NCBI GenBank assembly: GCA_008632985.1
Contig: QPGO01000116.1
Location: 1-64,000 of the forward strand
Reading direction: 5' to 3'
Length of the DNA: 64,000 nucleotides
Source of the DNA: Psammoneis japonica
Lineage: Eukaryota
Below the pieces are notes generated by a model. That model searched no databases, was not told where the DNA came from, and saw only the letters and a list, made by a program, of their open reading frames with translations. Position 1 is the stretch's first letter. Each line of letters opens with the position of its first letter. Both the position numbers and the translations under genes were made by a program. Shown here one piece after another: positions 6,628 to 39,689 of the stretch.

Positions 6628-7149
6628 AGGTGGCTCACCATGAGATGCTGCAGAAGAGCAGCCTTTGCAAAAAAATCCCACCAGATGGACAAGGCAATGT
6701 TGGCACAGAAGAGAGCTGCATGAGCAGAGGCCAAGGAAGAACATCTGGCCACCGCCTGTGTTCATTCTTGGAGCAGCAGTCTGAAGGTGATGTGGGGTGT
6801 GATCAAAACCCCAACAAGTTTCCACCCAACAGGGGATGACAGATGCCCAAGGACCGTGGTGCAAGCATGTGGCATGCTGTCAAACTGGCGCAGCTGATCC
6901 AACATGCAGCACACCACATCAACAGGCAATGACTGTGCAGCATCGCCAATGTCAACAGAGCCTCTTCCAAAGGTGGGGGGGGCTGATCTGCAGACCTCAT
7001 CACATGCTGTCTTGCAACAACAACACTCCATTGCAAACTTTGTGGAAGTGGCAGAAAGTGGGGAACTTGATGATGCCAATGACCTTGGTTTCCAGTTTTG
7101 CACAGTGACCAAGGAAGACAATGAAAGGGGATCAGCTGACTTTCAGCTG

Positions 7150-8130
7150 ACTTTCAGCTGACACACCAGGCACAAGCAGTCAGATGATGGTGGCATGCAC
7201 CAAAGCTGGACATTGACCAGCAACCAGCCCATGTGCAACACATTTGTGAGTGCAGGCATGCTCCAGAACATCCAGCCAAGGCAAAAGAGAAATGTCAGGT
7301 CACTTGCAACAACCATGAATTCAACACATTCATCATCCACAAGAACAGCAGCAGCACCCAGAAATTCAAAGAGCCCACATCAGGATCACATTTCTGTGAC
7401 ACCACATCACCAGAGCATCAAGCACAAGCAGCCATCACACTGGTCAATGGTGGTCAACACGGTTGCAGGAAACAAGGCCACACGCTTGGCTTGCCATGAT
7501 GTCAAGCAGGCCCAACCAGCAAGAACAATCCAGAATGAAGACCATGACACCAAATTGCAGGGGCAATCACCCTCTGACCAACCAGGAACACCCAAGGCAG
7601 ACACTTCTTTGTCAGCCTTGAGCCAGGATGCCACATCAACTTCTGGAGCTGTGGAAGCCATGAATCCAGGCACTCCTGAGAGGTGTGGGGGATGACATTG
7701 CTGCTGCTTGTTTCAGCAACGCCAATTGTGCTGACAGTTGTCATGTGATGCAAAGGCCCTGAACTGGGATGATCATTTTTGTGCCCCTCGCCCCAATCTT
7801 TTTGCACTTGGCATGGCAGAACACTGTTGCATTTTCAACCTTTGAGTTGGAGGTTGTTGTGATGAAGACAATCAATGCATTTTGCTGCACACTGTGGATG
7901 GACCCGCTGGTCTCTTCTGAGACAATGAAGCCACATTTGAGAACCCCAAGTCAAACAGAACCTGCACTTGAAAAAAAGTGCAACACAGCTGCACATGTCA
8001 ATGAGCTCATGCAATGCAGGTGGCTGGAACATCACAGGTTGCATGGGGAGGAGGACACAGAAATTCAGCCAATGTTCTCACCAAGTTGGTGCCTGGGCTG
8101 ACTCATCAGTTGCATCTTAAACATGACTGG
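7150..8130 (+). mobile_element. Highly degenerate relic of another copia family
   Basis: Fragments AKAKEKCQVTC...FIIHK...FKEPTSGSHFCD and VNTVAGNK...DVKQAQPARTIQ resemble diatom copia pre-integrase regions. NSANVLTKLVPG (~8065) resembles the RNase H C-terminus. Recognised by eye only. Confidence 0.5.
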
Positions 8131-9704
8131 CAGCATCATTTTCAGCAACCACAAACCCATTCTCTTGAAAGACAGAAAAGCAAAGGACAAATGCAATGGA
8201 CACACAGTTTCCATGGCTGCCTCTCATGGGTTGCTGTTTTTGCAGTGTTCATTTTGCTTCTCATCACTGCAGCCAGAGAAGAAAACAAGGGGCTGGCCAT
8301 TTGAGCAAACAGCAGATCAACAAACCCTGTCCATGCTCTTTGAGATGGGGACAAAGAACTCTGGGAATCTAGAAGCATGAGAGTGCAACATGCAGCAGAT
8401 GGGGTCATGACTTGGGGTGCATGCTCTCCAAGTTAGGATGAAGCAATTGTGGTTGGTGTTGCAACCGAAATGAAGTTGGCAGCCCAGCTGTGTTCCAGCA
8501 GCAAATGGACAGATCTTCTGCTCTTCTTGTCTCTCAACAACAATGCTGACCACAATTGGAAGAATGTCTTTGATGTCAAGCACAAGTCGCAAAGTGGAAA
8601 TGCCATGCCAGTGTGGAACAAAGGTGCAGAGTTCATGTGCTGCTTCTTCACATTGGATGGTGATGCACAAAGCAAATGTTCTCAGTTCAAACTTGATGGG
8701 AAAAAAGTGGCACCAATGATTGATGATTGTTTTTGGTGTCCAATCTAAACTCAAACAGAAGAGACTGGAGTGGCTTTTTGCAGCCTGTGAACAGAAAAAC
8801 AAGCCAAACTCTTCCAGAGTGGCGCGCCACACATTTTCCAGCTCTGAATGGAGTGGTGAATGTTCTGTTGCACCACCAAGAGAAATCTCAGTCAATGTGA
8901 AACAGCTTGCACTTTCTGGCAGGTGTGGGTGGATGTGTCAACAAATTGAGTTGCCCTGGGGTTCATGATGCCTGCAAAAAAAAAAACCATCACAGGCCCC
9001 ACTGTGCACTCCAACACCCCAGCCTTCTTTTGCACCAATTCAAGAACCCTTGGTGCATCAAACAGCTCTCCCAACTCATCCACCAACAAGACAAACCGCA
9101 GGGGAAACCCCACCCAATTCACCAACAACCTTGATGCCTGCCCAGGATCCAACTTTGACACCAACAAATTTCTCCAACAGCCCAAACACTTGATCCTGTG
9201 GCAAGAGCAACATTGAGCCCAACAAGTTTGCCAACCACACTGCAAACATTGAATCCTGTGTCACCTCCCATGCTGTCTGTGACTCAGGGACCAACACCCA
9301 TCCCTTCAAACTCAACCATGCCCATGCCAAATTCAAACCCCTGCTTCATTTTAAACACCTTGTCCAACACAAAAAGAGCCTCACCTGTCCCAGCAAGGCA
9401 TCTCACTCTGGCACCAGCTGGTGCACCAAAGAAGGCCCAAACACTGCCAGAAGTGAGCGACAATGACAAGAAAATTAAAGTGGCTTCAGAGCTGGGGGTC
9501 CTTGGGTGCTGGCAGGAACGCCAAAACAACAATGAGTGCAAATCTTCAATGTGTCAGAGTGGTGCTTGTGTGGCATGGTCTGCTTGCTTCCCAATCAAGC
9601 ACAAAACTGGCATGCACTCTTTGACAAAGACAGAGCCAACAATCAACACTGTGTTTGATGCCTCTGCTTTTTTTGACTCAAGCGGCCACCAAGCTTGTGC
9701 AGCA

Positions 9705-13787: not shown

Positions 13788-13923
13788 CTCCCCCAAAACT
13801 CCAACCACCAAAAACCGAGGGGTCGGAAGCACACTTTTGGGAGCTCTTTTTCTCCGCACAAAAAACACGCGTTTTGACAACTCGACCATGACGACCTCCC
13901 GTTCTTCGTCCCCTGCACCTGAC
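13788..13923 (+). repeat. Left terminal inverted repeat
   Basis: CTCCCCCAAAACTCCAACCACCAAAAACCGAGGGGTCGGAAGC...ACCATGACGACCTCCCGTTCTTCGTCCCC is the reverse complement of 20182-20320 with few mismatches. Confidence 0.92.
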
Positions 13924-15869
13924 TGCTCCTCCGTCCACACATGTGCCGAACCACCTTCTTCTCCCGTTTCTGCTGACATGCGTGGTGTGCTTCCTTCTAG
14001 CGGGATGCATCAAATTTTGGGCAACCAACATGCTGCTGCTGCACATGATGTTTGCACGGATGCTGCCGCTTCCAGCCAAATTGACGGCACCTTTTCCGAC
14101 GACGCTGCCTCCGCATCCATCTTGCGGGTCTCTCTTGATGTCTTCCAAAAGGCTCCGTGTGCTTGGCAGAGTGACATGTTGCGCCATGTGCTTCAAACAG
14201 GTCCCACTCGTCCCGCGCAACCTTTGTTGCTTGTCCGCCCCACTGGTGGTGGAAAGTCCCTTGTGCGAGACATTGTTGGTGTTTGCCTCAAGGGTGTCAT
14301 CCTCACGATCGTTCCCTTGTTGTCCTTGGGCTCGGATCAATGCCGTAAAATCATGAACCGTGCCATGCAACATCCATCACACGGTCCTGTTGCTTCCTTC
14401 CATTTGGATGAAGCACTCCAAAATCCATTGTGCATGCAGGCGTTTTATTCTTTGATGCAACGTTTGCCAATGGCGGTTCGTGGGACGACATTCCTTTTTT
14501 GTTCGCCTCAGTTGCTTGTGTCCAATGAGCAGCTTGTGAATCTCATTCTGAGATTTGCATCCAACGGATTGCTGCGGCTCCCAGCCTTGGATGAAATTCA
14601 TCTGTTTGTGAGTTTCGGGCTTTCTTGTCGGGTGGAGTTTCAACAACTTCGCAATGTCTTTTTCCATCACATTCAGCGGTGTTCCATTCCATTCCTCCTG
14701 ATGACGGCAACCTGCACTGTGCGTGCCGTCTCGTCCATGGAGGGTTTGATTGGATTCAAAATTCAAGACTGCTGTTGGCCACCTCCCTGGCATGTGATGC
14801 ACAGGAATGTTTCGTTCCTTGTTTCTTGCAGTGACCGCCCATTCACGGTGACATCCAATGTGCTGGCTCCGTTGCTGGGTGCTGCAACTGACGCGACCAA
14901 ATGTGTTGTGTGCTCTAACCGCCGCACAAAAATTGAATCCTTCCAAACAAATCTTTGAGATGTGGCTGGATCACAGCGACGCATGCCATTTGTTGGACGT
15001 CATTTTGCTGGTTGGTGCGCTCACCAAGGAACAAAAGGCTCACCACAATTCAACATTCATTGAAACAGATGCGTCCACACCCGGACGCTCCCTGTCGACC
15101 TCGGTTTCTTTGTGCCACAAGTGGTGCTTCCAATGCCGGCATCGATTCTCAACACATTGCCGGTGTTTTCCAAATTGATTTCCCTCTGTCCATCATTGAC
15201 ATGAATCAAGAGAAAGGCCACGCTGGACGCAGTGCGGCTTTGTCTGGTTGCTTCTACCAAGCTTTCATTTCTCTTGAAACTTTTCTTCATTTGTTCCTTC
15301 GCATCACAGACCCGGCGGAAAAAAAGGTCTCGCGCGATGCACGGCGAAACGAGCTTCATGACTTGATGCAGGTTCTCCGTCTGCTTGTTTTGCCCGTTTG
15401 TTGCCATCAAGCATCCTGGGAGGTGCTGCATTCTCATCCGACGCATGCAAGGATGGTCGACCCCCGTTTTTTGAATCCGTGTGGAGCCTGTGCCCATTGT
15501 CACGGAAAACACTTGGATCTCCACCCCGCTTTGAATCGTCCGGGCATTGTGTCCATGCTGTTCAATGTGTTCGTGCATGGCGAACATGCAATCCGGAACC
15601 TGCGCCTTGTGGATGCGGTTGTCGATGCCACTCACCGGTTCCCCGGCGCACCAGCTTTGTTGTTCCGAATCTCTGCGGCAAAGGTGGAGCCCAAGGTGGT
15701 CAAGCAAACCATCTTGGTTCTCATTGCGGCTGGCATGCTTGTTTGCGAGCCCACTGAGGACGAATCCAACAAGCATTGCATGACGTCAGCCCTTGCATTG
15801 GTTGCACCCGGCGCTGCGGAATTTGCAATGCATCACGATTCGTTTTGGGATTGTGTCCGCACCAAATAA
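13888..15869 (+). pseudogene. RecQ-like superfamily 2 helicase (frameshifted)
   Basis: Motifs RPTGGGKS (I), IVPLLSLGSDQ (Ia), LDEIH (II), MTAT (III), ATSGASNAGID (V) and QEKGHAGR (VI), plus a Cys cluster CCH...CGACAHC (RQC-like Zn site). Frame change near 14950-15080. Confidence 0.9.
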
Positions 15870-15919
15870 GAACAGTGGCAGTGTCACCTGCAACAGTCAC
15901 AAGTGATTGACAAACATTG

Positions 15920-18900
15920 TCACACAAGCGATCGCAGCCGATCAAATGCTTCTTGTGGCATTGCATCAACTTCTTCACCGGTGTTTTCACGAAACAAGGG
16001 ATCCTCCAATGATTCCCAAAGTCTTTCCTCACGTGCTTTTGCCCGACATCGTGTCTGTTGTAAATTTTTCTTTTCCATTTTTTCTTTGCCTACTTCAAAG
16101 ACGTTCTTGAATCCAAGGACGTTCACCGCGGCCTGTGTTATTTTGCCTGCGTTGCGATTGCCCACTTTTACATCAACCATCTCCGACGCAAACACAGACG
16201 CACCTTGTTCCACTTCATCTTCCGTCTCCTCCTCCGTTTCCTCCGCCTCATCATCATGAAGCGCACCAATCATCATGGGATCCATTGTCACCAATGCACC
16301 AGGCTCATTGACATTGTCATCCGATGTGTGGCTTGCTTGTGCCAGCCCCTCGAGCTCTTCCGCCATTGAAGCCGCAGCTCCTTCCACACGTGTCTCGTCC
16401 TCGTTCCCATCATTGTCGTGTGTCGCATCCGCCACCGACGACAGCAGCATCTCTTCCTCCGTCTGACAGTCTTCTAGCCAACGTTCCATCCTTTCGTCTT
16501 CTGTCTCCGCGTTCAATTCGGTCGTGAGGTTGGGCAATTCCTTCCAAAACAAATCCCGGCTGCATCTGCGTCCAGGGATTTCTACTGTGGCTTGTGTCAA
16601 ATGAAGCAACTCGGCTGCCAACTGCTTCTCAAGCACTCGGCTTGGCACTGACGTGGCCTTCTTTTGGTTGTCGCTGTCACGCTTGGGGTCGTTGTCCTGC
16701 AGGTCCACGCATTTGCGCTCAAACGTCTCGCTGTCTGCCAGCCTAGCGCACTCATTGGACGAGAACTGGATGCACTTGGCAATCATCGCTGCATTGCCAG
16801 AGTGCGTCTTCCAACCTTCGATTGTGTTCTGGAAATTCATCTTGTGGCAATGCCGTTGCATCAACTCTGTCAATCCATCCAGGGCCCAGCATGCCATGGG
16901 GTTGCCGGACCGGTCTGTGCCCTCGTAAAGAGGGTGGGCGCGGTTTGCTCGCATCATTTGCAACACTTCAAAAGGTGGCTTGCCACACAACTGTTCAATG
17001 GTTTCGACGCCAATGTTAAAATGGTGCGTCTTGCCTGCTGCCAAGAAGACAGGATTGAACGAGTTGTACAGCCACTTGATCACAACGGCATCGCCACACC
17101 TCACCGACGCCTGGAACAAACGACAACAGTGAATCAGTTTTGCATGTTGCAGCACCATGCAAAACACTTCATCGGCAGTCGTCGACATGGCTCTGTCCAC
17201 CCACGCCATGTGTTGCTCGGATGCGAACAAAGCACATTCGCCAGGTCCTTGTAACGCGATCCACTGATTGCACAATTCGTTGTCATTCAACAGCACAGTG
17301 CAAAAGGTGTTTGTGAGTTGACGTTCTGCTTCGGCACCCAACATCATGGCCATTGCAGCGGCTTGTTGGTGGCACTTTGTCACGTCTGTTCCACGGATCC
17401 GCTTCCACCCCAGTGCAGCTTGGAATGGCTGCAGCAACGACCCGCAGTGCAGAGCATAAATGGCACCCAAAAAATGGAAGCTGCCTCCATGCAGATCACC
17501 TGTAGAGTTGATGACCTGCCCCATCGCCTTTTCCAACACGCCAGCGGCAACATGCCAGTCCACGTGGCTGTGCGCCGAGGCCTGCATCAATTCCCGGAAG
17601 GACTTGACTCACATCTGAGACAGTCCATCACCCACCACCATCAACCAACGTGTCCGGTGGTCGTCAGCAAGGGCTGGGTCTTGCACAGCCTCGCCCGAAA
17701 CACCACGGGAAGACGTCGCCTCAATGATGTTGAACAGTTGCAAAAGGCCCAATGCCACCTTACCCGCGCCCTTGTCAGTGGTTTCGTCCTCACAAGAGAC
17801 AGCAGGAATCATGACGGAAACCCGTTTTGGCATGCCCCGCCAAATCTGCGCAGCACTACGTTGGAAATTTCGACAAGACTGGTGGAACCCCCGAGGCACG
17901 CGATTCGGAGACAGCCTGATTGTGACGTTCAGGGATTTCATGGTGTCTGCACCAGTCGCATTCTGAAAGGCAAAGACGGTGTCTCGGTCACGAGGAATGC
18001 AGTGGCGCTGCACACAAGCCATGGATGCCAAGCGAACAACACTCGAGCACCGAGAGACACGAGTGCCTGTGGAATCCACACTGTCAAAGAATGCGTCAAA
18101 GCACTGGACGTCGATGATGCGGGCATTGTTGGCCAGCGTTGGTTCAACAGTGTCACAGGCCGGCATCCCGAATGGCGATGGTGTCGATTGATCGACGCAG
18201 GTGATGACAGTCGGAGGCAACAGGGCCGTGGGGCAAGCGTCAAATCGAGGTGGCACGTGCGGCTTTACAAACATGCGAGACGCAGTTTTGGTCACCGCGG
18301 CGGATTCACCCTGGCGTTGATGTTTGAGGCTGCCAACAATCTGAAACCAAAGAGTCGCCAAGGCAAAGTGCGTAAAGCAAGTGCTCAAAGGGCAATGGTC
18401 ACTGCCACACAGTGTGTCACTCACCTGAGAATTGTCAAAAATGGCAATTCCAAAGTTGCCGGAATCCTTTGGGGTCTCATTGGTTTCTGAAAGGACCGTG
18501 GCATGGCTGGCAAAGGGACGCATCTTGCGCAAAAGAGTGCTCTGATGCGCCGACTGGCCAAAGCAAACAGACATCTTGGAACGAGACGCAGAATCAAAAG
18601 AGCCACAGGACGCAGCAGCGTTGCAGCACGCCCACCATGTGAACACTTTAGGGTTCCGGATGCGCATGATCGACATGAAGACATAAAAAACAAATCGATC
18701 CCAGACAGGAAGCAAGTGTTGCGCGCGAGATTGTTCTTTGCGAGCCTCGCAGCTCAACAATGAGCTGAGAACAATGTAACACTGCGGCATCGTTTCGCGA
18801 AACCGCTTTGCCATGTCGGTCAGGGCAACTTGAGACAGAATTGGAGAAGTTAATTCGATGAAACGACCAAAACAGGCACGCAAGGCATCCTCACACTCCG

Positions 18901-20220: not shown

Positions 20221-20320
20221 GGTCAAGTTGTCAAAACGCGTGTTTTTTGTGCGAAGAAAAAGAGCTGCCAAAAGTGCGCTTCCGACCCCTCAGTTTTTGG
20301 TGGTTAGAGTTTTAGGGGAG
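20182..20320 (-). repeat. Right terminal inverted repeat
   Basis: GGGGACGAAGAACGGGAGGTCGTCATGGT...GCTTCCGACCCCTCAGTTTTTGGTGGTTAGAGTTTTAGGGGAG. Confidence 0.92.
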
Positions 20321-20736: not shown

Positions 20737-20879
<143 letters not shown>

Positions 20880-23049: not shown

Positions 23050-23520
23050 TCCCTCTCAAATTTTCTTTTCCTTCATGGCCTTGTGATCCCAAAGTTTCCA
23101 GCAGCTCTCCGGTGTCAACAGCTCCAGAGCCTTGTCATTTGCCACACATGGCTCTGCAGCTTTGGATGAGGATGCAGAACAGCCAGGGTTCAAGTGGATG
23201 TCATTGGCAGGTGTCAGCCACTGTCTGGTCTGTGCATCAGCCCACTGGAAGAAGGAGGTCATTCTCTGGATCAAAATCTTTGGGGAGATTGTTGCATGTG
23301 TTGGAGCACCATTTGTTGCAAACAACTGTTTCTCTGAGGGTTGCAGTCATCTGTGGGAACAAACTTTTGGAGCTGCTCCTGCATCAGTTGGTTGACATTG
23401 AGGTTGTGGTGGTCGTCAAAAAGGGAGTGGGCAAGCAAGTCCCCCAACATGTCCAGCATTTGGGAGCAGGCAACTTGGCACCCACAAATGATGTGTGTGT
23501 CTGGCTTTGGCATGCACACC
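23050..23520 (-). mobile_element. Degenerate transposase relic, possibly Plavaka-like
   Basis: The minus frame reads KWCSNTCNNLPKDFDPENDLLLPVG*CTDQTVADTCQ*HPLEPWLF. Restoring Tyr/Arg gives WY...P..YTDQT..D.YQRYPLEPW.F, reminiscent of Plavaka-type transposases. By-eye recognition. Confidence 0.45.
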
Positions 23521-25029: not shown

Positions 25030-25465
25030 AAGGTGGGTTTCCTTGAGTTTCATTTTGTCGAAGGCTCCCGCAACCCAGCTGACATCCTCAGCAAGCGTTG
25101 GGGCTGCTCCCAAGTCTGGAGCCTCCTTCATCCTCTAATGTTTTGGAACTTTGATCCCAAGGCTTTCAACCAATCTGACCTTGAATCTGTTGCAGTTGAC
25201 CCCTCAAGCAAACTGGGGAGTGACAGGATTTGAACAAAATTTTAGTTTGTCACACACAATTGTGTGTGCTCTCAGTTCCACGTGTGTCATGCGACACAGT
25301 TTGCTTTCAAGCCACACTGCTCACAAGAACAATGACAGCAGCACCAATGTTGTGACACCAGTCTTTTGGCTCCTGCAATGGTCTCTGCACAGAAACCCAT
25401 CTGCCATTTAGACAGCAGCAAGGAGTTGTTGTTTTCTTCCACCCAGTCATCTTCATTTTCTGTCA
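25030..25465 (+). mobile_element. Remnant of a family-A-related copia: RNase H C-terminus, PPT and diverged LTR (25221-25465)
   Basis: FLEFHFVEGSRNPADILSKRWG, then AACTGGGGAG, then TGACAG...CTGTCA (245 bp). Confidence 0.88.
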
Positions 25466-26469
25466 TCTGGTGACAGAAAGTTCCTCCAGCTGGTGATCTG
25501 GATGAGGAGGGCAATCCACTCAGACATGGGAGCACATGGCAGGATCATCCAGGGAAGTTTTTTGGCAAACTCGCGCCAGTTGTGTGCCAAATTTTCTGCA
25601 AGGCAAAAGTCAGCAGCAAAGTGGTGCAGAACATGCTCAACACTTGCAGCATTGTTGGTTGCACAAAGGTGCAGCACATGAGCAAGAACTTCATCAGAGG
25701 CAGCTCAACACTTGGATGGGTCACAAATCATTGATGGAGCACATCAGCACATCCAGCCAGGACATGCCATTGGGGTCTTGTGGCAGAGAGTCAAGAGCCA
25801 GGCCCTTCACAACATTGCCAGGGCAAGAGCCACAGCTGGCTGATTTTGCAGAAGAAGAAGAAGAAGAAGGTTTCACCAGCTCACTGATTCCCAACAAGGC
25901 AGGAATGTTGGAGGTGAGGGTGCGGCGTGCCTCCCTGGACAACAAAACATCACAAGATTCTGCCACGGGAGGTGCCAGGTGTTCGAAGGAGAGAGGGTCT
26001 TAGCCTTCTTGGTGGGGATGGTGCCATCTTCATGCTTCCTTCTGATTTTGCACTTGGCTCTTGACCGGTGCTTTTGTTCACACAATCATCTTCCAAGCAG
26101 TCAACCCGGGATGTGTGCCAGGCTGCTCCTTTTGACAATGCTTCCCAAACTCTTGCTCTCCAACAAGGAATTGATTTTTGCTTTGTGCACATCCCAGCAA
26201 GCAATGGAGTCACCATCCTTTGTCACCAGGTCCTTCATGTTGTTGAGTTTGTCTCTGAGACAGGCCTTTGCACAACATCCTCTTTGGACCTGACTTGTCA
26301 CTTGACTTGCATGTGACAAGAAAGCTGTTGACAAATGTGCTCCACTCCTTCTGCTGGGCAATGACCTTTTGAAAAATCTTCAAGAACCAACATCTTGTGT
26401 GTCACTCTGCTGGCACATCAGATGCACTGCATGACCATTTTGGTGACAAAGCAGGCACCATGAAGGTTG

Positions 26470-26745
26470 TGTCAGAAAATGAAGGCAAATGGCAAGAATT
26501 CAAACAACAACTCCTTGCTGCTGTCTAAATGGCAGATGAGTCTCCGCTCAGAGACCGTCACAGGAGCCGAAAGACGTGCAAGTCGGTACAATCGGGCTAC
26601 TGTCATCATTCTTGTGAGCCTTGTGGCTCGAAAGCAAACTACATCGCGCGTGAACGCGCGGAACTGAAGCACACAAAACTGTGCACGGTAAACTAAACAG
26701 CGTGCGACACTTCGCGTGCACCCAAATCCTGTTCAAATCCTGTCA
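26470..26745 (-). repeat. 3' LTR, family A
   Basis: Reverse complement of the 276-bp LTR. The PPT complement CTCCCCAGTT follows at 26746. Confidence 0.95.
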
Positions 26746-29700
26746 CTCCCCAGTTTGCTTGAGGAGCCACAGAAACAGATTCGACTTCGGATGGAATGAA
26801 GTTCCAGAACATGAGGGGGCGGAGAAGGTCCCAGATTTGGGAGTGACCCCAATGCTTGCTGAGAATGTCAGCAGGGTTGCGGGAACCTTCGATGAAGTGG
26901 AACTCAAGGCAACCAGAGGCAATTGCCTCACGCACACGGTGGAATGACAGTGCGGTGTGTCGCTTGTGTAACTTGGAGTGCGGGATGGTGGCACTGTCTA
27001 CAACTGACTTGTTGTCACCGAACATGTAACTAACGTTACGGATCGGGACGCCAAGGCAGCGCAGGGTGATGCGCAGGTCGACAATCTGCTCAACACAAGT
27101 CCTTGCGGCAACAAATTCAGACCCGCAGGTCGCAGTCTCCACGGTGGCTTGTTTCTTAGAGAACCAATCAGCCGGGAATTTGTTGAGGAAGTGGAGCATT
27201 CCCATGACAGAGCATCCGGTGAGCATGCAATGGCACAAGTTTGCATCGACGCAGTGGGTGGTGGTGACGAACTTGCCAAGGGGCGGTGGAGCGTCCTTCG
27301 GGATCATCTCTTCTGCTTCACCACACACGGAATGCATCCATTCATGGGCCGGAGCAGGGAGATCCGAACAGTCGGGCTCTTCCGTGCGAACGTGGAGAGC
27401 ACCATGTCGCATCTTGGAGAGGTGCCCACAGACGCATTTGGCACGATCCAAGTGGCCTTGACGGGGCGCAGCTCGGAAGCTAGAGAGTGACATGACGGCC
27501 GTGGCAATGTCAATTCGACCAAGGGACACTGCCCATTGGAGTGAACCAACAAGAGACTGGAACTTGTGAATGCCATCGGGTCCCAGCAGTTCGGAAGTGT
27601 CCAGTTCGGGGTGGTCACCCTTCTCTAGAGGTGACAGGGCGTTGGTGGCAGGTTTCTCCCCAAACAGTCGGGCACAGCTGTCGACCATGCGCTCGATGTA
27701 CTTGCGCGGAGACAGGCACAAGGTTCCGTCGGGTTCCCGGGAAAAGTCGCAACCCAGATGGAACTCAATGGGTCCCGCACCCTTGAGCTTGAACTTGTGC
27801 TTTTCCGTGAGAGTGTCGACGAAAGATTGAGGGTCCTTCATGGCAATGGCGAGGTCATCCACATAAACGGCAATGCATTCACAGTGGTCGCCGTTCCTGC
27901 GCATCCAAATGTCGGGTTCGGCGCGGCAGGGGAAGAAGCCTTCAGCTCGCAGGCAGTCGGCGAAGCGTTCGTGCCAGCGGAGACCGGAGCTGCGCAGTCC
28001 ATACAGTGCCTTGTGGATGACAAGGATGTGTCCTTCGAGTTTGCCAAATTCGGGTCCAGCTACAATGTAAAGCTTCTCCTTGGTGGTGGCTCAAGGCAGG
28101 CATTGCCAATGTCGGTGGCCCATGTCTCCAGCTCGTTGAGTTCGGCCAGGAAAATCATCAGCCGAAGGCCACGAAGGGAGACTGCTCCGGAGTAGACACT
28201 GTCGATGGGTACGTCCGTGAGGTGCCCGTTGGCTACGAGTCGTGCCTTGTGGCAACCGTCGTGTTTCACGTCGTACACCAGGTGCACTCGGATCTTCTTG
28301 TGTCCCGCAGGAGGAGTGGAAGACTTGAAGGGCCCGCAGTCATGGAAGACTTCGCATTCGTCGAGTTGGTCCATCTCGAGATTGGTTGCGTCTCCCCACT
28401 TGCGGTTGCCGTTGCGTTCGTCTAGTGACATGGCGTGTTTGCAGTTCCGGGGAACTTCGTATCCACACTTGCAGCGAGGTGCAGTGCGGAAGGAGCGAAG
28501 CTTGGCTTGGTTGGCCATGCGAAATAGCTTCTTTTGGCGCCTCGCGATGGTGCGGAACCGCTTCCAGCCATCCATGTCGAGGAGTCCGTTCTCTCGTGCA
28601 TAGATGGCACAGGTGACGGGGTCGTCCTTGGCGATGATGGCAAGAGGCTCGGACGTGATCTCCCCACTTTCCCATTCAAGCATGATGTTGTAGCTGGAGC
28701 CTTTCCAGGTTGGGTCGTGAGGCTTCAGAGGTCCTTCGTGCGACACGATGCGTCGAAATTTCCAAACAGTGGTGTCTTCGTCTTCTTGCTCAATGTGATT
28801 CATGATGTCATTGCAGGCAAGGACTTCCTCGTATTCGTCATTGTTGACAGAGCAGACGAACTTAGTGAGCTCGGGATTGCCGTTCACTNNNNNNNNNNNN
28901 NNNNNNNNNNNNNNNNNNNNNNNNNNNNNNNNNNNNNNNNNNNNNNNNNNNNNNNNNNNNNNNNNNNNNNNNNNNNNNNNNNNNNNNNNNNNNNNNNNNN
29001 NNNNNNNNNNNNNNNNNNNNNNNNNNNNNNNNNNNNNNNNNNNNNNNNNNNNNNNNNNNNNNNNNNNNNNNNNNNNNNNNNNNNNNNNNNNNNNNNNNNN
29101 NNNNNNNNNNNNNNNNNNNNNNNNNNNNNNNNNNNNNNNNNNNNNNNNNNNNNNNNNNNNNNNNNNNNNNNNNNNNNNNNNNNNNNNNNNNNNNNNNNNN
29201 NNNNNNNNNNNNNNNNNNNNNNNNNNNNNNNNNNNNNNNNNNNNNNNNNNNNNNNNNNNNNNNNNNNNNNNNNNNNNNNNNNNNNNNNNNNNNNNNNNNN
29301 NNNNNNNNNNNNNNNNNNNNNNNNNNNNNNNNNNNNNNNNNNNNNNNNNNNNNNNNNNNNNNNNNNNNNNNNNNNNNNNNNNNNNNNNNNNNNNNNNNNN
29401 NNNNNNNNNNNNNNNNNNNNNNNNNNNNNNNNNNNNNNNNNNNNNNNNNNNNNNNNNNGACAGTGTTCGCCATGCGCTTCACGGTCTGGTGTCGACGTTC
29501 GGCAAAGTTTTGGTGTTGCTGGTGAGGCTCACTTTGCCAGCTAGAGATGAAGAGGGCGCGCAGGATCCCGAGCACTTTGTTGCTGATCTCAACTTGAGCA
29601 CGGTCGCTAATGAGTTTGGATGGGGCACCACGTTCACGGATCTGATCCTCGAGTGTGTTGACAAACTCTTTGTCCGTCTTAGTGCCGCAGACGTCAGTGA

Positions 29701-32169
29701 CGGTAGACTCGGTGCCAACAAACAGTTGGGCGCTGGTGCAACCAGAGTCGATGGCCGGGGTGTCGGCACAAACGGTGTCAGTGGCGAGAGGCTCGTTGCG
29801 GAGGTGGAACGTCATCGCCCTTGGGGTCAATCGCACGCAGATGACACTCGTAGAACACGTCGTCGTTCGGAATGAGGTGATCATCGAGGGCGGACGCGTG
29901 ATCGGCAGACAAGGAAGCGGACAAGATGGTCTCGTTGACAACGACACGGTGACGGTAGTTGCCGCATTCGTCAAATGGGTTGGCAGTGGGATCGTCCTGC
30001 AGGTCAGAGATCGCGTCGCACCACTGGTCGTCGTCAGTGACAGAGTGATCGAGGACGGAAGGGTCCCATGTGTCATCACCGGCAAGGATGACATGGGGCA
30101 GGGTGTCCCATTCGGCATCAGTGCAAGGTCGCATGGCAACACAAGGCAGGCCAGCCTTGATGTCAATGGGGATGACATGGCCATCAGGAGTGGCAATGCG
30201 TTGCAAGCCGTTGGGCACCTTGACAGAGCGATCGTTGACATCCTGTTTGTGCCATTCGAGCTGGCCGCAGGAATGGATGGTCTTGCCCTTTCCCGTGCAT
30301 GCGCACTGATGGAGGATGGCGATGACGGGACCACGCTGGGTCTCAATGACGGCACCAGCGGTGACAATGGGGATGTCCACCAATTGATGATCGTCAATGC
30401 CCTGAACGTCGACTTGGCGAGAGGTGCGTGCAATGACGCGAACGTCGTCGCCAGCAATGCCGCCGTTGGCCCCACGATCGACTAGAGCGCCAGTGCGTGT
30501 GGAGCGATGAGCAGAGGCAGAGTAAATGACATTGTGGTTGTGACGCGGCGGCAAGTGCGGCCGTTAAGTTCTGTGTCATCTGCAGAAGCTGGCGGGGTAG
30601 AGGAAGCGGCGGATGGCCCGGTCGACTGGCATTGGGGGCTTGGTTAGGAGAAACAGACGTTGCAGATCACCGGGTGGCAGTGGCTTGCGCTTGGTGAGGT
30701 GCGCCAGGATGGGATCATCCAAAGTGGCGTCCACATGTGTGGCGGGGTCACCACAGTCAGCAGGAGTCGTGTTGGACAAGTTGACATCACCGTCACTCCC
30801 AAGGTGTTGGTCGTGAAGGTTGGCCGTAACAGACTCATGGCAGTTGCTGGCTCGCGGGTTGCGGGGAGGGGACGAGAATGCTCAAGGATGATCGCCTTGG
30901 AGGAATCGGGCAACGAATCCCAGAGCCGTTGGTGGTCGGGAGGGAGACGTCTCCATTGGACACCGGTGAGGCTGGGACCGCGGGTGCAGGCAGCATTGGC
31001 TTGAAGGACGTCAACGTCGCTGTCAATGTCGTAGAACACATCGTCGGACGGTTCCTCGGAGCAGATGTCGTGTGCGTGCATGGCGCGTCGGGGAGCTCTG
31101 GGTGTCGTCTTGGGTTGAAACGTGCTGTCGTACTGAGCTGCCGCGGAGAGGAGCAAGCCACAGCATTGATCGTATGTGAGGCTCTTGCCACTCTGCGCAC
31201 GATGCTGATCAGCTTGGTTCTTGACAGCACGGAGTTCCTCGACAGGGTGCACGGCATTCTCGAGCATGACGCACTTCTGTCCTTCAGAGAAGTGGTCACT
31301 GGCAGGGATGAGTGCCTCGCACTTGCACAACTGATCTTGCCAATGAAGGATGAACCCGTGGGTCGGACCTTTCCAAGTGCCATCACCAAGACGTGCGGTG
31401 GTGAGGTGCGTGAGCAGGGTGGAGGACTCGATGGATGCACGGGTGGAGGCAAGCGTGCACTCAGACAAGGAGCGGCAGACGGTCTGTGCGTCAGAAGACC
31501 CCACATTTTCGCGAATGAGAGCCTTGCCCTTGTCGGTGAGAAGGATGCGTTCGAAGACGGCGAACATGTGCTTTTGCTGTTCAGCAAAGAGCAGTTTGTC
31601 TTCGGGCTGGTCGGTTTGTACGACGAGTCTAGAATGCACTCGACGTCTTGGGCACGGGCTTGTGCCACAAGTGAGGTGTGCCAAGTGTGCCACTGCTTGT
31701 CGGATTTGAGAGCCGTGAAAGCGGTGGGATCACGCTTGATGCCTCGCTTGAAGTCTCGCACCGGGTCGCGTGCCTTGGTCGGGTTGGTGACGTGTGGAGG
31801 TGCAAGGGGTGAGCTGCCGATGGACACAGAAGACATGCAGTCGGGGCTGAGGCGGCAGGCAAGGAACTCGTCATGCGCGAACAAAGAGGAGTCGTTGGCA
31901 ACGTCAAGACCTTTGTGTGCTTTGACAATGCACAGACTGACCAGTGCTGCTAACATGTTCTTATAACCACGGGGCAAAGGGATTGCATCAGTGCCATTGT
32001 CGCACTCAAGCGAGTCGATTTGGGACGGCATGAACGTGAACAGTTCCTGATGCGAGTCCGTGCCGTCTTGGGCCAAAGCCAAACGAAGAGGACTTCCAGC
32101 ACCTTGGGCAAGCACGGTTCCAACAACGTGCTCGAAACCATCGGTTTGTTGCTGACGAGTGAGAACCAT
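26693..32169 (-). pseudogene. Frameshifted copia gag-pol
   Basis: Gag from MVLTR (ATG 32169) with DFKRGIKRD, protease LVDRGANGG, integrase SEPHQQHQNFAERR, RT AVYVDD and RNase H. Split over several frames. Confidence 0.9.
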
Positions 32170-33100: not shown

Positions 33101-33114
33101 CAAGACTGTTAATC
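33101..33114 (-). promoter_or_regulatory. Putative primer-binding site complementary to a tRNA-Asn(GUU) anticodon arm
   Basis: Directly after the 5' LTR the element reads GATTAACAGTCTTG, the complement of CAAGA-CTGTTAA-TC, which is a 7-nt anticodon loop with GTT. Confidence 0.6.
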
Positions 33115-33389
33115 TGACAGAAACTGAAGGCAAATGGCAAGAATTCAAACAATGACTCCTTGCTGCTGTCTAAACAGCAGATGAGTCTCCGCTCAGAGAC
33201 CGTTGCAGGAGCCGAAAGACGTGTAAGTCGGTATAATCGGGCTACTGTTATTGTTCTTGTGAGCCTTGTGGCTCGAAAGCAAACTACATCGCGCGTGAAC
33301 GCGCGGACTAAAGCACACAAAACTGTGCGCGGTAAACTAAACAGCGCGCGACACTTCGCGCGCATCCAAATCCTGTTCAAATCCTGTCA
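33115..33389 (-). repeat. 5' LTR, family A
   Basis: Reverse complement of the LTR (275 bp). Retains more TpA than the other copies. Confidence 0.95.
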
Positions 33390-35900
33390 TTTGTCATTGT
33401 CATGATGCACTCAGCTCTTGATTCCATTCTGGCTGAGGTGTCTGACTCAGCCAAGTGCAGTCAGGAGATGATGAGAAATCAACAACAGCATTTTTCATGG
33501 AATCTAGAACAATTGTGCATGCATGAGAAGAATTTTCAAGCTTGCGACAGGCAGCTCCTTGATGTTTTGCCATTCAGGAATTGTGCTGTGCTTTCAGGGA
33601 AGAGTGCAGGTGTGGCATGCACAGAGACCTTTTTTTGTTGTGTTTTTTTGTTGACACCACAAAGTGCAAAGAGGAGAGTGCACACAGAGACTGCCCACCC
33701 CAAGTCACCAAGAATGTCATGCTGTCCAATGATGTGCAAACACAAAAACAACTGGACAAAATGTCTTGCAAGCAGAGAGATGCAATGCATGGCATCTAAT
33801 GCCCCCATCATGCACTTCACAGATGCAGCCCAGCAGAGCTGGTGAGAACTTGTTGCACATGTGCTGTGGTGAGGATGTGAGCACTCAGTCATGGAATGAC
33901 CATTTTCTGCAGTGTCAGGACAGTGCATTGTGAAATCAATTTCCCCTGTCTTGAAATTCAAATTTGAAAAATGGCGTGCTGACCCAAGGTGACAGACAAG
34001 CTGTTTGGTGCAGAAAGTCCAGGAGTGACACCCAGCTTGTGCACCCCATTGGACAAACCTTGGTGGAGGACCAAAAAGAGTTCAGCATGCACCCAGCAAC
34101 TTCAACTTGGATGCACCCAGAATGCGTCATTTGCAAGATGTGCAGTGAGACTTGTCATCTTAACAAGGATTCTTGCCTCTGGATGGTGGAATGTTGGACA
34201 ACAAACTTGGCACCAAGGGCTTTGGTGCTGGCCAGCACTCTCCACCATCGCAATGGCACAACATTCCAAGTGGCTCTGTTGGGAAGTGCTTCATCACAAC
34301 ATTGGCAGAGTTGCTGCACACGGGCTCAAGACATGAAAGCAGAGCTTGGAGCAGGTTCACAGTGTGCCAATCAGTGATTTTGCAGCAGGGTTGCAATGCA
34401 GAAGGAGGCAAGGACATCAGGACCTGGGACATGGACAAACACAAAATTCTGGCCCAGTCAATGATCAGCTGCTTGAGTGCAATCTAAAGTCTGCTCAGAG
34501 GGAGGAGATGTGCCAGAGCAGTGTGTCACAAAACATTCAATGGAGTGGCATCATGAGAAAAGCCAAAGGGAGCATCATCACAGGCACATTTCTGAGGAGT
34601 GGGAAAAAGGTGGAATGCTTGCCTGGATGATGCTGATGAGAAGACCAAAAAGATGCCATGTTTGAGAACTTGGAGTCAAACACCTGGGCCAGAGAGTTCT
34701 GGGAGAAGATCATTTTCACACATTCAGCAAGCCACCTGGGATCCAAGCTGTCATCATTGCTTGCTGATGGCGCCATCAAGACTTTCACATGAAGACTGTC
34801 TGCAAGAGCACAAGTCTTGGCAGATCTGATGCCAGTGCAGCATCAGATGGCTTCTCCATTGCAAAAAGGCCAGCAGGTTGCTTGGAGAAGTGTGGAGCAT
34901 GTTCACAAATTGGCTGGCAAATGAGTCACTCTCTGTGGGATGCCTGCCATGCACACTCATGGCAAAAAGAAGCAGCTGATTGCACCAGACAAACATGCCT
35001 CTGGATGCCCATCTGGCTGGCACAGGAGAGGTGCAGCAGAGAGCCACAGCCAAAGCAATTCTTTCAGCAGTTGCCAGAGCAAAAGCCAAGGTGAGAGTGA
35101 TCCACTGTCTGTTCAGTGGAACGACCCTCTCCACTGACACCCCAACACACCAGGAAAATCAAAAGCATGGCAAAAACAGGATTGAAGATCTTCCAGTGCA
35201 GAAGAGAAGTGGTGAGAGTCATGACTGCCAGACAAACAGAGAGACAGCAAAATGGAAACAAAAAATCCCTTGCGGCACCCTGTGCTGAACAATGGCTGAC
35301 TCACAAAACCAGTCAAATCAATCATCAACAACACCAACAGACTGGGAGGTTGCTCAGAGTGTGAGCAGGACAGCAAGCTGGGAGGTCTGCGGGGTGACAC
35401 TAGAGTGTGCTGTGAGAAGGCCTTCCTGACCTTGCCCAATCCAAGAAGAAATCAGGTGGGCGACAGGAAGAGCCAAGCTGGCATCTGACAACAACTCCAA
35501 GCTGTGCAGCCGCCCCCACACAACAATGGGGAGCTTGCAACATTGGCAGGGTTCTTGGCAGACTTGGACTTCTCCCACCAGCTCACAAGCTGAATGATCA
35601 TTTTCCACATGCACTCACCCCTTGACATGCTGGTGACTCCACAGCAGTGGGAAAATCTGGGTCCTCAGAGATTTTTTCTTGACTCTCATCTGAGCTGAAG
35701 GCCCCGCCCAAGCATGCATGATGGACACTCCTGTTCTGCCAACAACTCTGAGAATGCCCTGGCAGGCCAGTCCCAGAATGCAACCTGCTGGAAAATGCCA
35801 GGACCTGCTTTGGAGACCACAGTTCATTGGCGAGATGGAAGCACGCAACAGATGGTTGGCAGAGAAAGCTGAGTTGTGGACCTCTGTCATGTCATCCAAG
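33390..35900. other. Unidentified degenerate repeat-derived sequence, depleted of both TpA and CpG
   Basis: Same composition as the identifiable relics, with no credible ORF. An abrupt switch to normal composition occurs at ~35905. Confidence 0.55.
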
Positions 35901-36112
35901 GCAATTCGTACCGTATCGCATCAAGGTGGCACACAGCAAATGAGCGCGACATAATGCGCATCCCTCCCAACGCAATTCTCACAAAAACCACCGCACCACA
36001 AAAACAAAAATGACGATGGTGAGTTCCTGAACAGCTCCGACCACGATTTCCATGCCAGTGCTAGAGGATTGGCACCCTGTGATCGTCTTTGTTTGATAGG
36101 ATTCTTCACAAG

Positions 36113-39662: not shown

Positions 39663-39689
39663 GTTGTTGTTGTTGTTGTTGTTGTTGTT
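39663..39689. repeat. (TTG)n microsatellite
   Basis: Directly visible upstream of the aminotransferase. Confidence 0.9.

What the first reader, a model, noticed from the sequence alone, without database searches (positions are those of the whole stretch)
6628..35900. Context rule of the mutator: surviving TpAs are almost all Y-TA-R
Seen: in the most decayed tracts the remaining TpAs are mostly CTAG, TTAG, CTAA or TTAA (e.g. CTTAAA ~8116, TCTAGA ~8368, GTTAGG ~8432, TCTAAA ~8744, TCTAGA ~24454, TCTAGA ~33503, TCTAAT ~33795, CTTAAC ~34159, TCTAAA ~34483, ACTAGA ~35399). TAC, TAT, GTA and ATA are essentially gone. Resistance is not absolute: the two TIRs differ at two CTAA/CCAA sites. Inference: an enzyme-like sequence preference favouring TAY/RTA, comparable to the UAC substrate of TadA. 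It is hard to explain by base-composition drift or codon selection.
Basis: partly seen in the sequence, partly recalled or inferred. Interest (0 to 1): 0.8.

Follow-up and report, generated by a model that had tools for sequence, protein, structure and literature searches.

The report
Flanking-base rule of a TpA mutator
In the oldest transposon relics of this diatom-like genome every remaining TA dinucleotide has a pyrimidine before it and a purine after it, which suggests that the process turning TA into TG or CA prefers an A followed by T or C and so gives a fingerprint for the still unknown enzyme.

Summary
The window is eukaryotic, and its best named gene homologues are diatom proteins. 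Its transposon territory has lost TpA (o/e 0.15) and gained CpA/TpG. In the three tracts that have also lost CpG (11.3 kb), 23 of 23 remaining TAs are Y-TA-R (background 24%, p 5e-15). Over the whole stated range only 80 of 259 TAs (31%) are YTAR.

In elements that keep their CpG there is a gradient. TAs with TAT on either strand fall to 3-12% of gene density. TAC-type TAs fall to 17-48% and YTAR to 20-58%.

Polarity is shown: 14 of 17 conserved Tyr columns of one copia element now read Cys or His. In contexts that tell the strands apart, 14 of 16 events hit the A that is followed by a pyrimidine.

TpA-to-TpG/CpA hypermutation of foreign DNA has been described once, in Bigelowiella natans (2026 preprint). 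That paper's main text gives no flanking rule. T-A-Y is opposite to the U-A-R preference of ADAR and fungal Tad2/Tad3 editing, and only partly TadA-like.

The enzyme is not identified. The rule could not be checked genome-wide because no genome is held.

The parts
6628..9500 (.). Saturated relic tract B1: no CpG, and TA only in YTAR context
   Evidence: 6 TAs, all YTAR; CG 5.2 per kb; CA+TG 234 per kb. It starts directly after the LTR that ends at 6627.
20501..26500 (.). Saturated relic tract B2. It contains an old copy of the copiaA 3' end and LTR at 25036-25465.
   Evidence: 12 TAs, all YTAR. 25036-25465 is 72% identical to 4175-4619, and it reads TG/CA where the younger copies have CG or TA.
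33501..35900 (.). Saturated relic tract B3, with a sharp border to host genes at about 35900
   Evidence: 5 TAs, all YTAR. The 100-bp bins go from 0 TA and 0-2 CG to normal values at 35900-36200.
1..4619 (+). copiaA copy 1 (Ty1/copia, RVT_2), TA-depleted but CpG-retaining; cut by the window start
   Evidence: RVT_2 E 9e-24. 94% identical to the reverse complement of 26470-30918. Density relative to genes: TAT-type 0.03, TAC-type 0.17, YTAR 0.20.
26470..30918 (-). copiaA copy 2, paired with copy 1 for the polarity and direction counts
   Evidence: 183 of 207 differences are transitions. In mixed contexts 9 of 10 TA-versus-product sites follow the T-A-Y rule. There are 25 CA/TG alternations.
13788..20320 (.). 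6.5-kb element bounded by 132-bp inverted repeats, with no reverse transcriptase found; TA-depleted and CpG-retaining
   Evidence: The TIRs are 93% identical, with two CCAA/CTAA differences. Only sub-threshold DEAD/Helicase_C matches. Density relative to genes: 0.05/0.21/0.28.
47662..54906 (+). copiaB, the least decayed element: two 237-bp LTRs with near-normal TA and a TA-depleted interior
   Evidence: The LTRs are 97% identical. The interior has 89 TAs in 6.8 kb, at 0.12/0.48/0.58 relative to genes. The LTRs hold 10 and 11 TAs in 237 bp each. 14 of 17 conserved Tyr columns read Cys or His. It is a high-copy family: 3035 contigs laid on it.
33115..33389 (-). Solo LTR of the copiaA type lying undecayed beside relic tract B3
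   Evidence: 10 TAs and 76 CG per kb, against 0 TA and 0 CG in the next 100 bp.
36001..47661 (.). Host genes used as the internal control (histone deacetylase, class-III aminotransferase, ribose-5-phosphate isomerase, SDR, TAFII28-like)
   Evidence: Pfam hits. TA 42 per kb, YTAR 18% and RTAY 31% of TAs.
54907..64000 (.). Host genes used as the internal control (Ufd2-like and others)
   Evidence: Pfam hit. TA 37 per kb.

Best explanation
Transposon DNA in this genome is exposed to a mutational process that turns TpA into TpG or CpA, that is, A:T to G:C transitions at TpA on either strand. The process reads the next base. The A is changed most readily when followed by T, less readily when followed by C, and rarely when followed by A or G. 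On the other strand this reads as a T preceded by a purine. A TA therefore lasts only if it reads TAR on both strands, which is Y-TA-R.

Transitions never move a flank between the Y and R classes, so a YTAR site cannot drift into a susceptible context. Ordinary C-to-T changes in the very abundant CA/TG pool keep creating new TAs, and only those in YTAR context persist. The old tracts therefore settle at a floor of about 2 YTAR per kb and hold nothing else. These old tracts have also lost their CpGs, most simply through long-term cytosine methylation and deamination.

Shown: the polarity, the restriction to TpA, the order TAT > TAC > TAR, and the all-YTAR end state.

Inferred: that the agent is an enzyme acting on DNA, most likely an adenine deaminase (A to inosine, read as G) as proposed for Bigelowiella natans; that it is aimed at transposons; and that regeneration maintains the floor.
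For: TpA restriction and products: TA o/e is 0.15 in 6628-35900 against 0.47 in the rest of the window, with CA 1.67 and TG 1.57. Some 1-kb bins have 0 TA and CA/TG o/e of about 2.0. AA/TT (1.13-1.20) and AT (0.81-0.92) are not depleted.

Polarity: 14 of 17 conserved Tyr columns in copiaB are Cys or His. Logan contigs of the same family show 5 sites where this copy has CA and the others TG, or the reverse. There are 25 such alternations between the two copiaA copies.

Context order: density relative to genes for TAT-type, TAC-type and YTAR is 0.12/0.48/0.58 (copiaB), 0.09/0.36/0.48 (copiaA2), 0.05/0.21/0.28 (TIR element), 0.03/0.17/0.20 (copiaA1) and 0/0/0.29 (class B). A two-strand additive Poisson model beats uniform depletion with three different baselines (chi2(3) of 81-105) and leaves a residual deviance of 11-18 on 12 df.

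Which strand is hit: 14 of 16 events in informative contexts.

End state: 23 of 23 YTAR, with a further lean to Y at -2 and R at +2 (34 of 46 against a 49% background, p 5e-4).

DNA level: the TIR-bounded element without RT and the non-coding relics are affected like the retrotransposons. Both product directions are about equal (Cys 7 and His 7). Inserted copies differ at these sites.

Precedent: de novo TpA>TpG/CpA mutations in integrated viral DNA of B. natans mutation-accumulation lines, where TpA-poor clusters are enriched for RT and DDE domains (bioRxiv 10.64898/2026.01.13.699255; I read the abstract, Results and Discussion).
Against: The density data in CpG-retaining elements do not separate TAC from TAR well. 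CTAG (YTAR) is as depleted as GTAC (RTAY) with both the gene and the metagenomic copia baselines. With the copia baseline the fitted extra loss for TAC is -0.09.

Between the two copiaA copies, YTAR sites differ as often as mixed sites (11 of 16 against 12 of 23). A pure-survivor reading does not predict this. I estimated that ordinary transitions could account for only about 2 of these 11 differences as new TAs.

The all-YTAR state goes with CpG loss and not with the depth of TA loss. A second process or a chromatin-dependent regime is therefore not excluded.

The product test (YTGY+RCAR)/(YCAY+RTGR) gave 1.14 in class A and 1.37 in class B, against 1.29 in genes and 0.99 in the intermediate region. 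That is no clear support.

The direction evidence rests on only 16 events, and copies of a family are not fully independent.

Everything comes from one 64-kb window. None of the 80 related copia loci from metagenomes shows the depletion. No enzyme was seen.
Confidence: 0.6

Rival explanations
1. There are two regimes or two agents. An early burst removes most TAs with only a TAT preference and leaves TAC-type and YTAR in parallel. A separate slow process then clears TAC-type TAs, and it works only in silenced, CpG-methylated chromatin. On this reading the YTAR rule belongs to the second regime and not to the mutator as such.
For: At equal TA depletion, CpG-retaining bins keep TAC-type 16, YTAR 7 and TAT-type 3, while CpG-poor bins keep YTAR 15 and TAC-type 1. 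TAC-type and YTAR fall in parallel across four CpG-retaining elements. If TAC-type had tracked YTAR, about 47 would be expected in class B; 0 were seen. CG density is bimodal, 55-76 per kb or 5-16 per kb.
Against: Direction data from CpG-retaining elements already show the T-A-Y strand bias (14 of 16). There is no general C-to-T loss at ApC in class B (AC o/e 0.95). Non-CpG C>T changes from the class A consensus to the class B copy number 20 among 405 aligned columns (about 226 G+C positions). That is too few to convert all TAC to TAT. Greater age alone would also link CpG loss with TAC loss.
Confidence: 0.2
2. The modified base is the thymine and not the adenine. An enzyme acts on T in R-T-A, for example an oxidase that makes 5-hydroxymethyl- or 5-formyluracil, which mispairs with G. 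This gives T to C. The footprint is identical because R-T-A is the complement of T-A-Y.
For: Sequence alone cannot tell A-centred from T-centred chemistry; every count fits both. That oxidised thymine mispairs with G, and that TET/JBP-type thymine oxidases exist, is my own recollection and comes from no call.
Against: No such enzyme or base was seen here. The only published proposal for this footprint is adenine deamination.
Confidence: 0.12
3. RNA-level A-to-I editing of transposon transcripts (ADAR- or ADAT-like) is fixed in the genome by reverse transcription.
For: Known A-to-I editors favour U before the edited A (passages of PMC9600606; Discussion of the preprint). Most affected elements here are LTR retrotransposons.
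Against: The TIR-bounded element with no RT found, and the non-coding relics, are equally TA-poor. The copiaB LTRs, which also pass through RNA, keep near-normal TA. Both strands are hit about equally. Inserted copies differ by CA/TG alternations. ADAR and fungal Tad2/Tad3 editing prefer G or A at +1 and disfavour C, the opposite of T-A-Y.
Confidence: 0.05
4. No special mutator is involved. The pattern is compositional drift, codon usage, selection against TA or stop triplets, or inheritance from TA-poor ancestors.
For: TA is under-represented in most genomes; it is 0.59 even in this window's genes.
Against: Tyr is replaced by Cys or His at 14 of 17 conserved columns. Related copia loci from metagenomes have TA o/e of 0.41-0.91, none below 0.4 (0 of 80). 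64 of 124 1-kb windows here are below 0.25, against 1 of 751 in those loci. The borders at element ends are sharp. YTAR means TAA or TAG on both strands, which selection against stop triplets would remove first.
Confidence: 0.02

Closest known systems
TpA-targeted hypermutation of integrated viral DNA in Bigelowiella natans (Mettrop et al., bioRxiv 10.64898/2026.01.13.699255, 2026; I read the abstract, Results and Discussion)
   Same: A:T to G:C transitions confined to TpA, giving TpG or CpA. TpA-poor, CpA/TpG-rich clusters. Enrichment of reverse-transcriptase and DDE domains in TpA-poor sequence. The targets are foreign or mobile DNA.
   Different: That organism is a chlorarachniophyte, while this window's genes are closest to diatom genes. 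Here the targets are LTR retrotransposons and a TIR element, and depletion reaches zero TA per kb. The paper's main text has no occurrence of 'flank', 'context', 'trinucleotide' or 'CpG', so the T-A-Y rule and the link with CpG loss are not in it.
Repeat-induced point mutation (RIP) of Neurospora and other fungi
   Same: Transition hypermutation of repeated or mobile DNA with a dinucleotide preference, leaving a compositional scar. This comparison is from my general knowledge; listings of RIP papers appeared.
   Different: The direction is opposite. RIP turns CpA into TpA and so enriches TpA and creates stop codons. Here TpA is destroyed and no new stop codon can arise, which leaves long open frames in all six phases (71 ORFs of 150 aa or more). 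I could not test dependence on duplication or on a sexual cycle.
TadA and TadA-derived adenine base editors
   Same: Adenine deamination with T/U before the target and C after it. ABE8e A48E edits within YAC (passages of PMC13109818). That the natural substrate is the UACG anticodon loop is my recollection.
   Different: Here TAT is hit harder than TAC. The substrate is chromosomal DNA in a eukaryote. No deaminase gene was seen.
Fungal sexual-stage A-to-I mRNA editing by Tad2/Tad3, and metazoan ADAR editing
   Same: A to G changes with a strong preference for U at -1 (passages of PMC9600606).
   Different: Those editors prefer G or A at +1, and C at +1 reduces or abolishes editing. Here purine at +1 protects. 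They act on RNA.
Decay of methylated CpG in diatom transposons (DNMT5-dependent methylation; PMC9998398, abstract and passages)
   Same: CpG loss with TpG/CpA gain, restricted to transposon-derived tracts (CG o/e 0.17 in class B). Diatom TEs are known to be CpG-methylated.
   Different: It explains only the CpG half of the pattern. Methylation itself cannot be read from the sequence.

Membership tests
TpA-to-TpG/CpA hypermutation of foreign or mobile DNA (B. natans type) | Mutations are A>G / T>C transitions that fall on TpA | tested here: met
   TA o/e 0.03-0.17 with CA/TG 1.4-1.84 and other A- or T-containing dinucleotides normal. Tyr to Cys/His at 14 of 17 conserved columns. CA/TG alternations between copies.
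TpA-to-TpG/CpA hypermutation of foreign or mobile DNA (B. natans type) | [quoted passage not shown] | tested here: met
   In the non-overlapping 1-kb bins, runs of consecutive bins with TA o/e of 0-0.16 and CA/TG of 1.5-2.05 cover 6001-11000, 14001-19000, 20001-27000 and 34001-36000.
TpA-to-TpG/CpA hypermutation of foreign or mobile DNA (B. natans type) | Confined to foreign or mobile sequence, with host genes spared | tested here: met
   The depleted tracts are copia elements, a TIR element and their relics. Host genes at 36001-47661 and 54907-64000 keep TA o/e near 0.6. The borders are sharp.
TpA-to-TpG/CpA hypermutation of foreign or mobile DNA (B. natans type) | De novo occurrence at a rate about 1000 times background, in only some lines | not testable with these tools
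   This needs mutation-accumulation or resequencing data. Only assembled contigs of one sample were available.
Repeat-induced point mutation (RIP) | C to T at CpA, raising TpA and lowering CpA/TpG in repeats | tested here: not met
   The opposite is seen: TpA 0.03-0.17 and CpA/TpG 1.4-1.84 in repeats.
TadA-like specificity (U/T-A-C) | T before the target A | tested here: met
   Only TpA is depleted among NpA dinucleotides.
TadA-like specificity (U/T-A-C) | C is the preferred base after the target A | tested here: not met
   TAT-type sites are 2-3 times more depleted (log scale) than TAC-type sites in every element. The fitted extra loss is TAT +1.4 to +1.55 against TAC -0.09 to +0.59.
ADAR / eukaryotic ADAT mRNA-editing specificity (U-A-R) | Purine favoured and C disfavoured after the edited A | tested here: not met
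   Purine after the A protects: 23 of 23 survivors read TAR on both strands, and 14 of 16 directional events hit the T-A-Y strand.
Polymerase eta WA signature | A>G at both TA and AA | tested here: not met
   AA/TT o/e is 1.15-1.20 in the depleted tracts, the same as or above genes at 1.13. The WA motif itself is my recollection.
Methylated-CpG decay | CpG depletion with TpG/CpA gain limited to silenced repeats | tested here: met
   CG o/e is 0.17 in class B, against 0.86 in class A and 0.99 in genes. There are 13 CpG C>T changes from the class A consensus to the class B copy, which has 25 CpG sites in the consensus.
Methylated-CpG decay | The tracts carry 5-methylcytosine | not testable with these tools
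   No methylation data were available.

The most novel reading that the evidence does not exclude
Diatom-like algae and chlorarachniophytes share a genome-defence enzyme that edits double-stranded chromosomal DNA of transposons and integrated viruses at T-A-Y, changing A to G (or T to C at R-T-A). It would be a mirror image of fungal RIP that scrambles proteins without ever creating stop codons. Its specificity differs from every characterised A-to-I editor, so it would be a new natural DNA A:T-to-G:C editor.
Probability: 0.3. Interest if true: 0.85.

Novelty: new member of a known kind. Interest (0 to 1): 0.65.

Why it matters
TpA-directed hypermutation of foreign DNA has so far been reported once, in one chlorarachniophyte, and the enzyme is unknown. 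This window shows the same footprint driven to saturation in the transposons of a genome whose genes look diatom-like. The process may therefore be widespread in marine algae.

The flanking rule has three uses:
- It argues against a moonlighting ADAR- or ADAT-type editor, which prefers a purine after the A. It also sets a concrete assay for candidate enzymes: TAT > TAC >> TAA, TAG.
- It can be tested at once on the published list of de novo mutations.
- It gives a simple statistic for finding old, saturated targets in other genomes: the share of YTAR among residual TAs, together with CpA/TpG excess.

A practical consequence for annotation follows. The process never makes stop codons, so dead elements look like very long intact ORFs, here up to 2196 aa.

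Tried and rejected
- **Product-side test.** If the A followed by Y is the target, YTGY+RCAR should exceed YCAY+RTGR in decayed tracts. The ratios were 1.14 (class A) and 1.37 (class B), against 1.29 in genes and 0.99 in the intermediate region. Differences between baselines are as large as the effect, so the test is inconclusive.
- **Whole genome.** None is held, so no genome-wide count was made.
- **Family variation from public runs.** Only assembled contigs of one sample were available, and no RNA holder was listed. Of 697 variable places on copiaB, 40 were shown, which is too few for per-context rates.
- **Same-family protein copies.** A search with a copiaB segment scored 8000 candidates, 193 passed and 120 were listed. 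The best identity was 61%, so no close copies were found. The representative search added only 3 conserved-Tyr columns.
- **Independent replication.** Of 80 metagenome loci encoding related copia proteins, 0 had TA o/e below 0.4. The search was built from unmutated homologues and is biased against hypermutated copies.
- **Simple constant-rate model.** Rates fitted on class A predict about 10 CTAC/GTAG survivors in class B (my own hand estimate from the fit); none was seen. I therefore added regeneration and age to the model.
- **TAC to TAT feeding by general C>T.** Rejected as the sole cause of TAC loss, because AC o/e is 0.95 in class B and non-CpG C>T changes number only 20 among 405 aligned columns.
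- **Literature.** Searches for the footprint in diatoms or elsewhere found nothing beyond the B. natans preprint: TpA with transposable elements, hypermutation and depletion; diatom with retrotransposon and TpA; diatom with A-to-G hypermutation; Phaeodactylum with copia, transitions and dinucleotide; TpA/CpA/TpG with genome defense; diatom with RIP.
- **Other checks.** Earlier notes of this scan held nothing on this genome or its look-alikes. Rfam and tRNA scans of the window were empty. Pfam at E 0.5 gave the TIR element only sub-threshold helicase matches.

Full report
**What the window is.** No whole genome is held for it. It has no tRNA or Rfam matches. Its unbroken reading frames encode eukaryotic housekeeping proteins: a histone deacetylase, a class-III aminotransferase, ribose-5-phosphate isomerase, an SDR, a TAFII28-like protein and a Ufd2-like protein. 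It also carries three Ty1/copia reverse-transcriptase regions. The best named homologues of the deacetylase are diatom proteins, followed by bolidophyte and brown-algal ones. I therefore call the genome diatom-like and take it no further.

**The background phenomenon.**
- In 6628-35900, TpA o/e is 0.15, CpA 1.67, TpG 1.57 and CpG 0.62. In the rest of the window TpA is 0.47.
- Some 1-kb bins contain no TA at all in complex, non-repetitive sequence.
- Counts in 500-bp bins sort the window into four classes:
  - Class B has almost no TA and almost no CG (6628-9500, 20501-26500, 33501-35900).
  - Class A has low TA and normal CG (1-6500, 14001-20500, 26501-33000, 48001-54500).
  - Class C is the host genes.
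  - An intermediate stretch lies at 9501-14000.
- Class A consists of recognisable elements: two 94%-identical copies of a copia element, a family of 327-bp LTRs, a 6.5-kb element bounded by 132-bp inverted repeats, and a second copia element with 97%-identical LTRs.
- Class B is at least partly older copies of the same families. 25036-25465 is 72% identical to the 3' end and LTR of copiaA, and it reads TG/CA where the younger copies have CG or TA.

**Check of the observation.**
- Within the finding's range, 23 of 23 TAs in class B are Y-TA-R. Only 23.9% of the CA/TG steps in the same tracts have Y..R flanks (p 4.9e-15).
- The ten quoted sites are all there. The 23 sites have unrelated flanks, and the three tracts share no similarity.
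- The TIRs differ at two CCAA/CTAA sites.
- The claim does not hold for the whole stated range, where 80 of 259 TAs (31%) are YTAR and CTAC/GTAG is the largest class.
- In class A, YTAR is 32% of TAs against 18% in genes, and RTAY is 13% against 31%. Both shifts are significant.

**Polarity.**
- TE reading frames have 0.3-0.7% Tyr against 1.7-3.7% in host genes, with raised Cys and His.
- I aligned copiaB to 70 unmutated homologues (3.4% Tyr on average over the 120 listed). There are 17 columns with conserved Tyr. CopiaB has Cys in 7 of them, His in 7 and Tyr in 1.
- Contigs of a public run laid on copiaB show a high-copy family: 3035 contigs laid, and 581 of 697 variable places are transitions. 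Of the 40 places shown, 10 form five adjacent pairs where this copy has CA and the others TG, or the reverse.
- The two copiaA copies show 25 such alternations.
- TA is therefore the ancestral state, and TG and CA are its two products. Much of the change happened independently in separate copies.

**The order of contexts.**
- I grouped TAs by the base that follows the A on either strand. Density relative to genes for TAT-type, TAC-type and YTAR is:

| Element or tract | TAT-type | TAC-type | YTAR |
|---|---|---|---|
| copiaB interior | 0.12 | 0.48 | 0.58 |
| copiaA2 | 0.09 | 0.36 | 0.48 |
| TIR element | 0.05 | 0.21 | 0.28 |
| copiaA1 | 0.03 | 0.17 | 0.20 |
| class B | 0 | 0 | 0.29 |

- A model in which each strand contributes independently, according to the base after its A, beats uniform depletion. 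Chi2(3) is 81-105 with three baselines: host genes, pool-normalised genes, and 432 kb of related copia loci from metagenomes. It leaves little residual deviance.
- In all fits TAT stands out. TAC is only weakly separated from TAR by density.

**Which strand is hit.** Density cannot tell 'A followed by Y' from 'A preceded by R-T'. Direction can. In YTAY and RTAR contexts the two models predict opposite products.
- Between the copiaA copies, 9 of 10 such sites carry the product expected if the A followed by a pyrimidine was changed.
- At polarised Tyr codons preceded by a pyrimidine, 5 became Cys and 1 His. After a purine the counts are 2 Cys and 7 His (Fisher p 0.04).
- Together that is 14 of 16 (p 0.004).
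- The rule is thus T-A-Y on the strand of the A, or equally R-T-A on the strand of the T. Sequence cannot say which base is chemically attacked.
- In the saturated tracts there is a further lean to pyrimidine at -2 and purine at +2 (34 of 46 against 49%, p 5e-4).

**What does not fit a simple picture.**
- The all-YTAR state goes with CpG loss and not with the depth of TA loss. Among bins with 0-2 TAs per 500 bp, CpG-retaining bins hold 16 TAC-type, 7 YTAR and 3 TAT-type TAs. CpG-poor bins hold 15 YTAR and 1 TAC-type.
- YTAR sites are not inert. 11 of 16 at-risk YTAR sites differ between the copiaA copies, no fewer than mixed sites (12 of 23).
- Constant rates fitted on class A would leave about ten CTAC/GTAG sites in class B (my own hand estimate from the fit). 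None is there.
- General C-to-T change cannot have fed all TAC into TAT. AC is not depleted (o/e 0.95), and non-CpG C>T changes number 20 among the 405 columns of the class A to class B comparison.
- My reading is that class B is simply much older and that the residual YTARs are a dynamic floor. Class B is 28% diverged, against 6-8% among class A copies. The CA/TG pool (about 230 per kb) keeps producing new TAs by ordinary transitions. Those in T-A-Y contexts are removed again, and those in YTAR contexts persist. Transitions cannot move a flank between the Y and R classes. This is inference.
- A second, chromatin-dependent regime is a live rival.

**Level of action and targeting.**
- The footprint is strand-symmetric.
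- It affects a TIR-bounded element in which no reverse transcriptase was found, as well as non-coding relics.
- It differs between inserted copies. All this points to chromosomal DNA and not to edited RNA.
- The borders are sharp at element ends.
- A solo LTR lies undecayed next to a saturated tract, and the copiaB LTRs keep near-normal TA while the interior is depleted. The process therefore does not simply spread over a region.

**Comparison with what is known.**
- The same dinucleotide footprint was reported in 2026 for integrated giant-virus and virophage DNA of Bigelowiella natans. There, 230 of 231 de novo mutations in two regions were A>G or T>C, and the GC-biased ones all fell on TpA. 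TpA-poor clusters were enriched for RT and DDE domains. The authors propose an ADAT2-like DNA adenine deaminase.
- That paper's main text contains no flanking-base analysis and no mention of CpG. I could not see its supplements.
- Six literature searches found no report of this footprint in diatoms or elsewhere.
- The T-A-Y rule is opposite to fungal Tad2/Tad3 mRNA editing and to ADAR. Both favour G or A after the edited A, and for the fungal enzyme C after it reduces or abolishes editing (passages of PMC9600606).
- It resembles TadA-derived editors with a YAC preference (passages of PMC13109818), except that TAT is hit harder than TAC.
- It is not the WA pattern of polymerase eta, because AA is not depleted.
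- It is the reverse of RIP.
- The CpG loss fits decay of methylated CpG, which is known for diatom transposons (abstract and passages of PMC9998398).

**Verdict.** The inference of an enzyme-like flanking preference is supported, with the refinement TAT > TAC >> TAR. The caveat is that the clean YTAR end state probably also needs time and regeneration. This is a second instance of a recently described kind of hypermutation, in a different algal lineage, with a new and testable specificity rule. All of it rests on one 64-kb window and on small polarised samples.

Noticed in passing
window 6628-9500, 20501-26500, 33501-35900: CpG density is bimodal across transposon territory. It is 55-76 per kb in recognisable elements, at or above the 56-58 per kb of host genes, and 5-16 per kb in the relic tracts. 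Only short stretches (4620-6300, 9501-10500) are intermediate, at 33-39 per kb. A second process, CpG to TpG/CpA, has run to near completion in the same tracts that show the YTAR-only state.
   Followed up: partly
window 47662-47898 and 54670-54906 versus 47899-54669: The two LTRs of copiaB keep near-normal TA (10 and 11 TAs in 237 bp each), while the 6.8-kb interior is depleted 2- to 9-fold depending on context. The copies may descend from an already mutated but still mobilisable progenitor whose LTRs had to stay functional. This was not tested.
   Followed up: partly
window 33115-33389: A solo LTR with normal TA and CpG lies directly beside a tract with 0 TA and 0 CG per 100 bp. The decay therefore did not spread into the later insertion.
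   Followed up: partly
whole window, e.g. 48058-54648 (+), 1592-4396 (+): TA loss removes TAA and TAG and can create no new stop codon. Dead elements therefore show very long open frames, often overlapping on both strands: 71 ORFs of 150 aa or more, one of 2196 aa. Gene callers will take such frames for intact genes.
   Followed up: yes
window 4919-5800: A tandem array with copy offsets that are multiples of 42 bp (84 to 630 bp), 75-84% identical. It lies between two LTR copies (4293-4619 and 6301-6627).
   Followed up: no
window 13783-15869 (+): Inside the TIR-bounded element, two adjacent frames give sub-threshold matches to DEAD/DEAH helicase (E 0.003) and Helicase_C (E 0.11). No transposase or reverse transcriptase was recognised, perhaps because the proteins are scrambled by the hypermutation.
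   Followed up: partly
window 41605-42363 versus 42839-43588: An inverted pair of 68%-identical segments in host-gene territory overlaps the ribose-5-phosphate isomerase frame. It may be an old inverted gene duplication.
   Followed up: no
window 47500-55100 (contigs of run X1): copiaB belongs to a high-copy family: 3035 contigs laid, 818 of them at least 99% alike. This copy carries private CpG to TpG/CpA changes at 9 or more of the 40 places shown, so CpG decay is also under way in CpG-retaining elements.
   Followed up: partly
window 20740-20890 and 22280-22320: (TG)n/(CA)n-like microsatellite stretches lie inside relic tract B2. They add to its CA/TG excess but contain no TA sites.
   Followed up: no
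window 614-659, 20778, 28889-29458: Runs of N (46, 1 and 570 bases). The long one interrupts copiaA copy 2.
   Followed up: no
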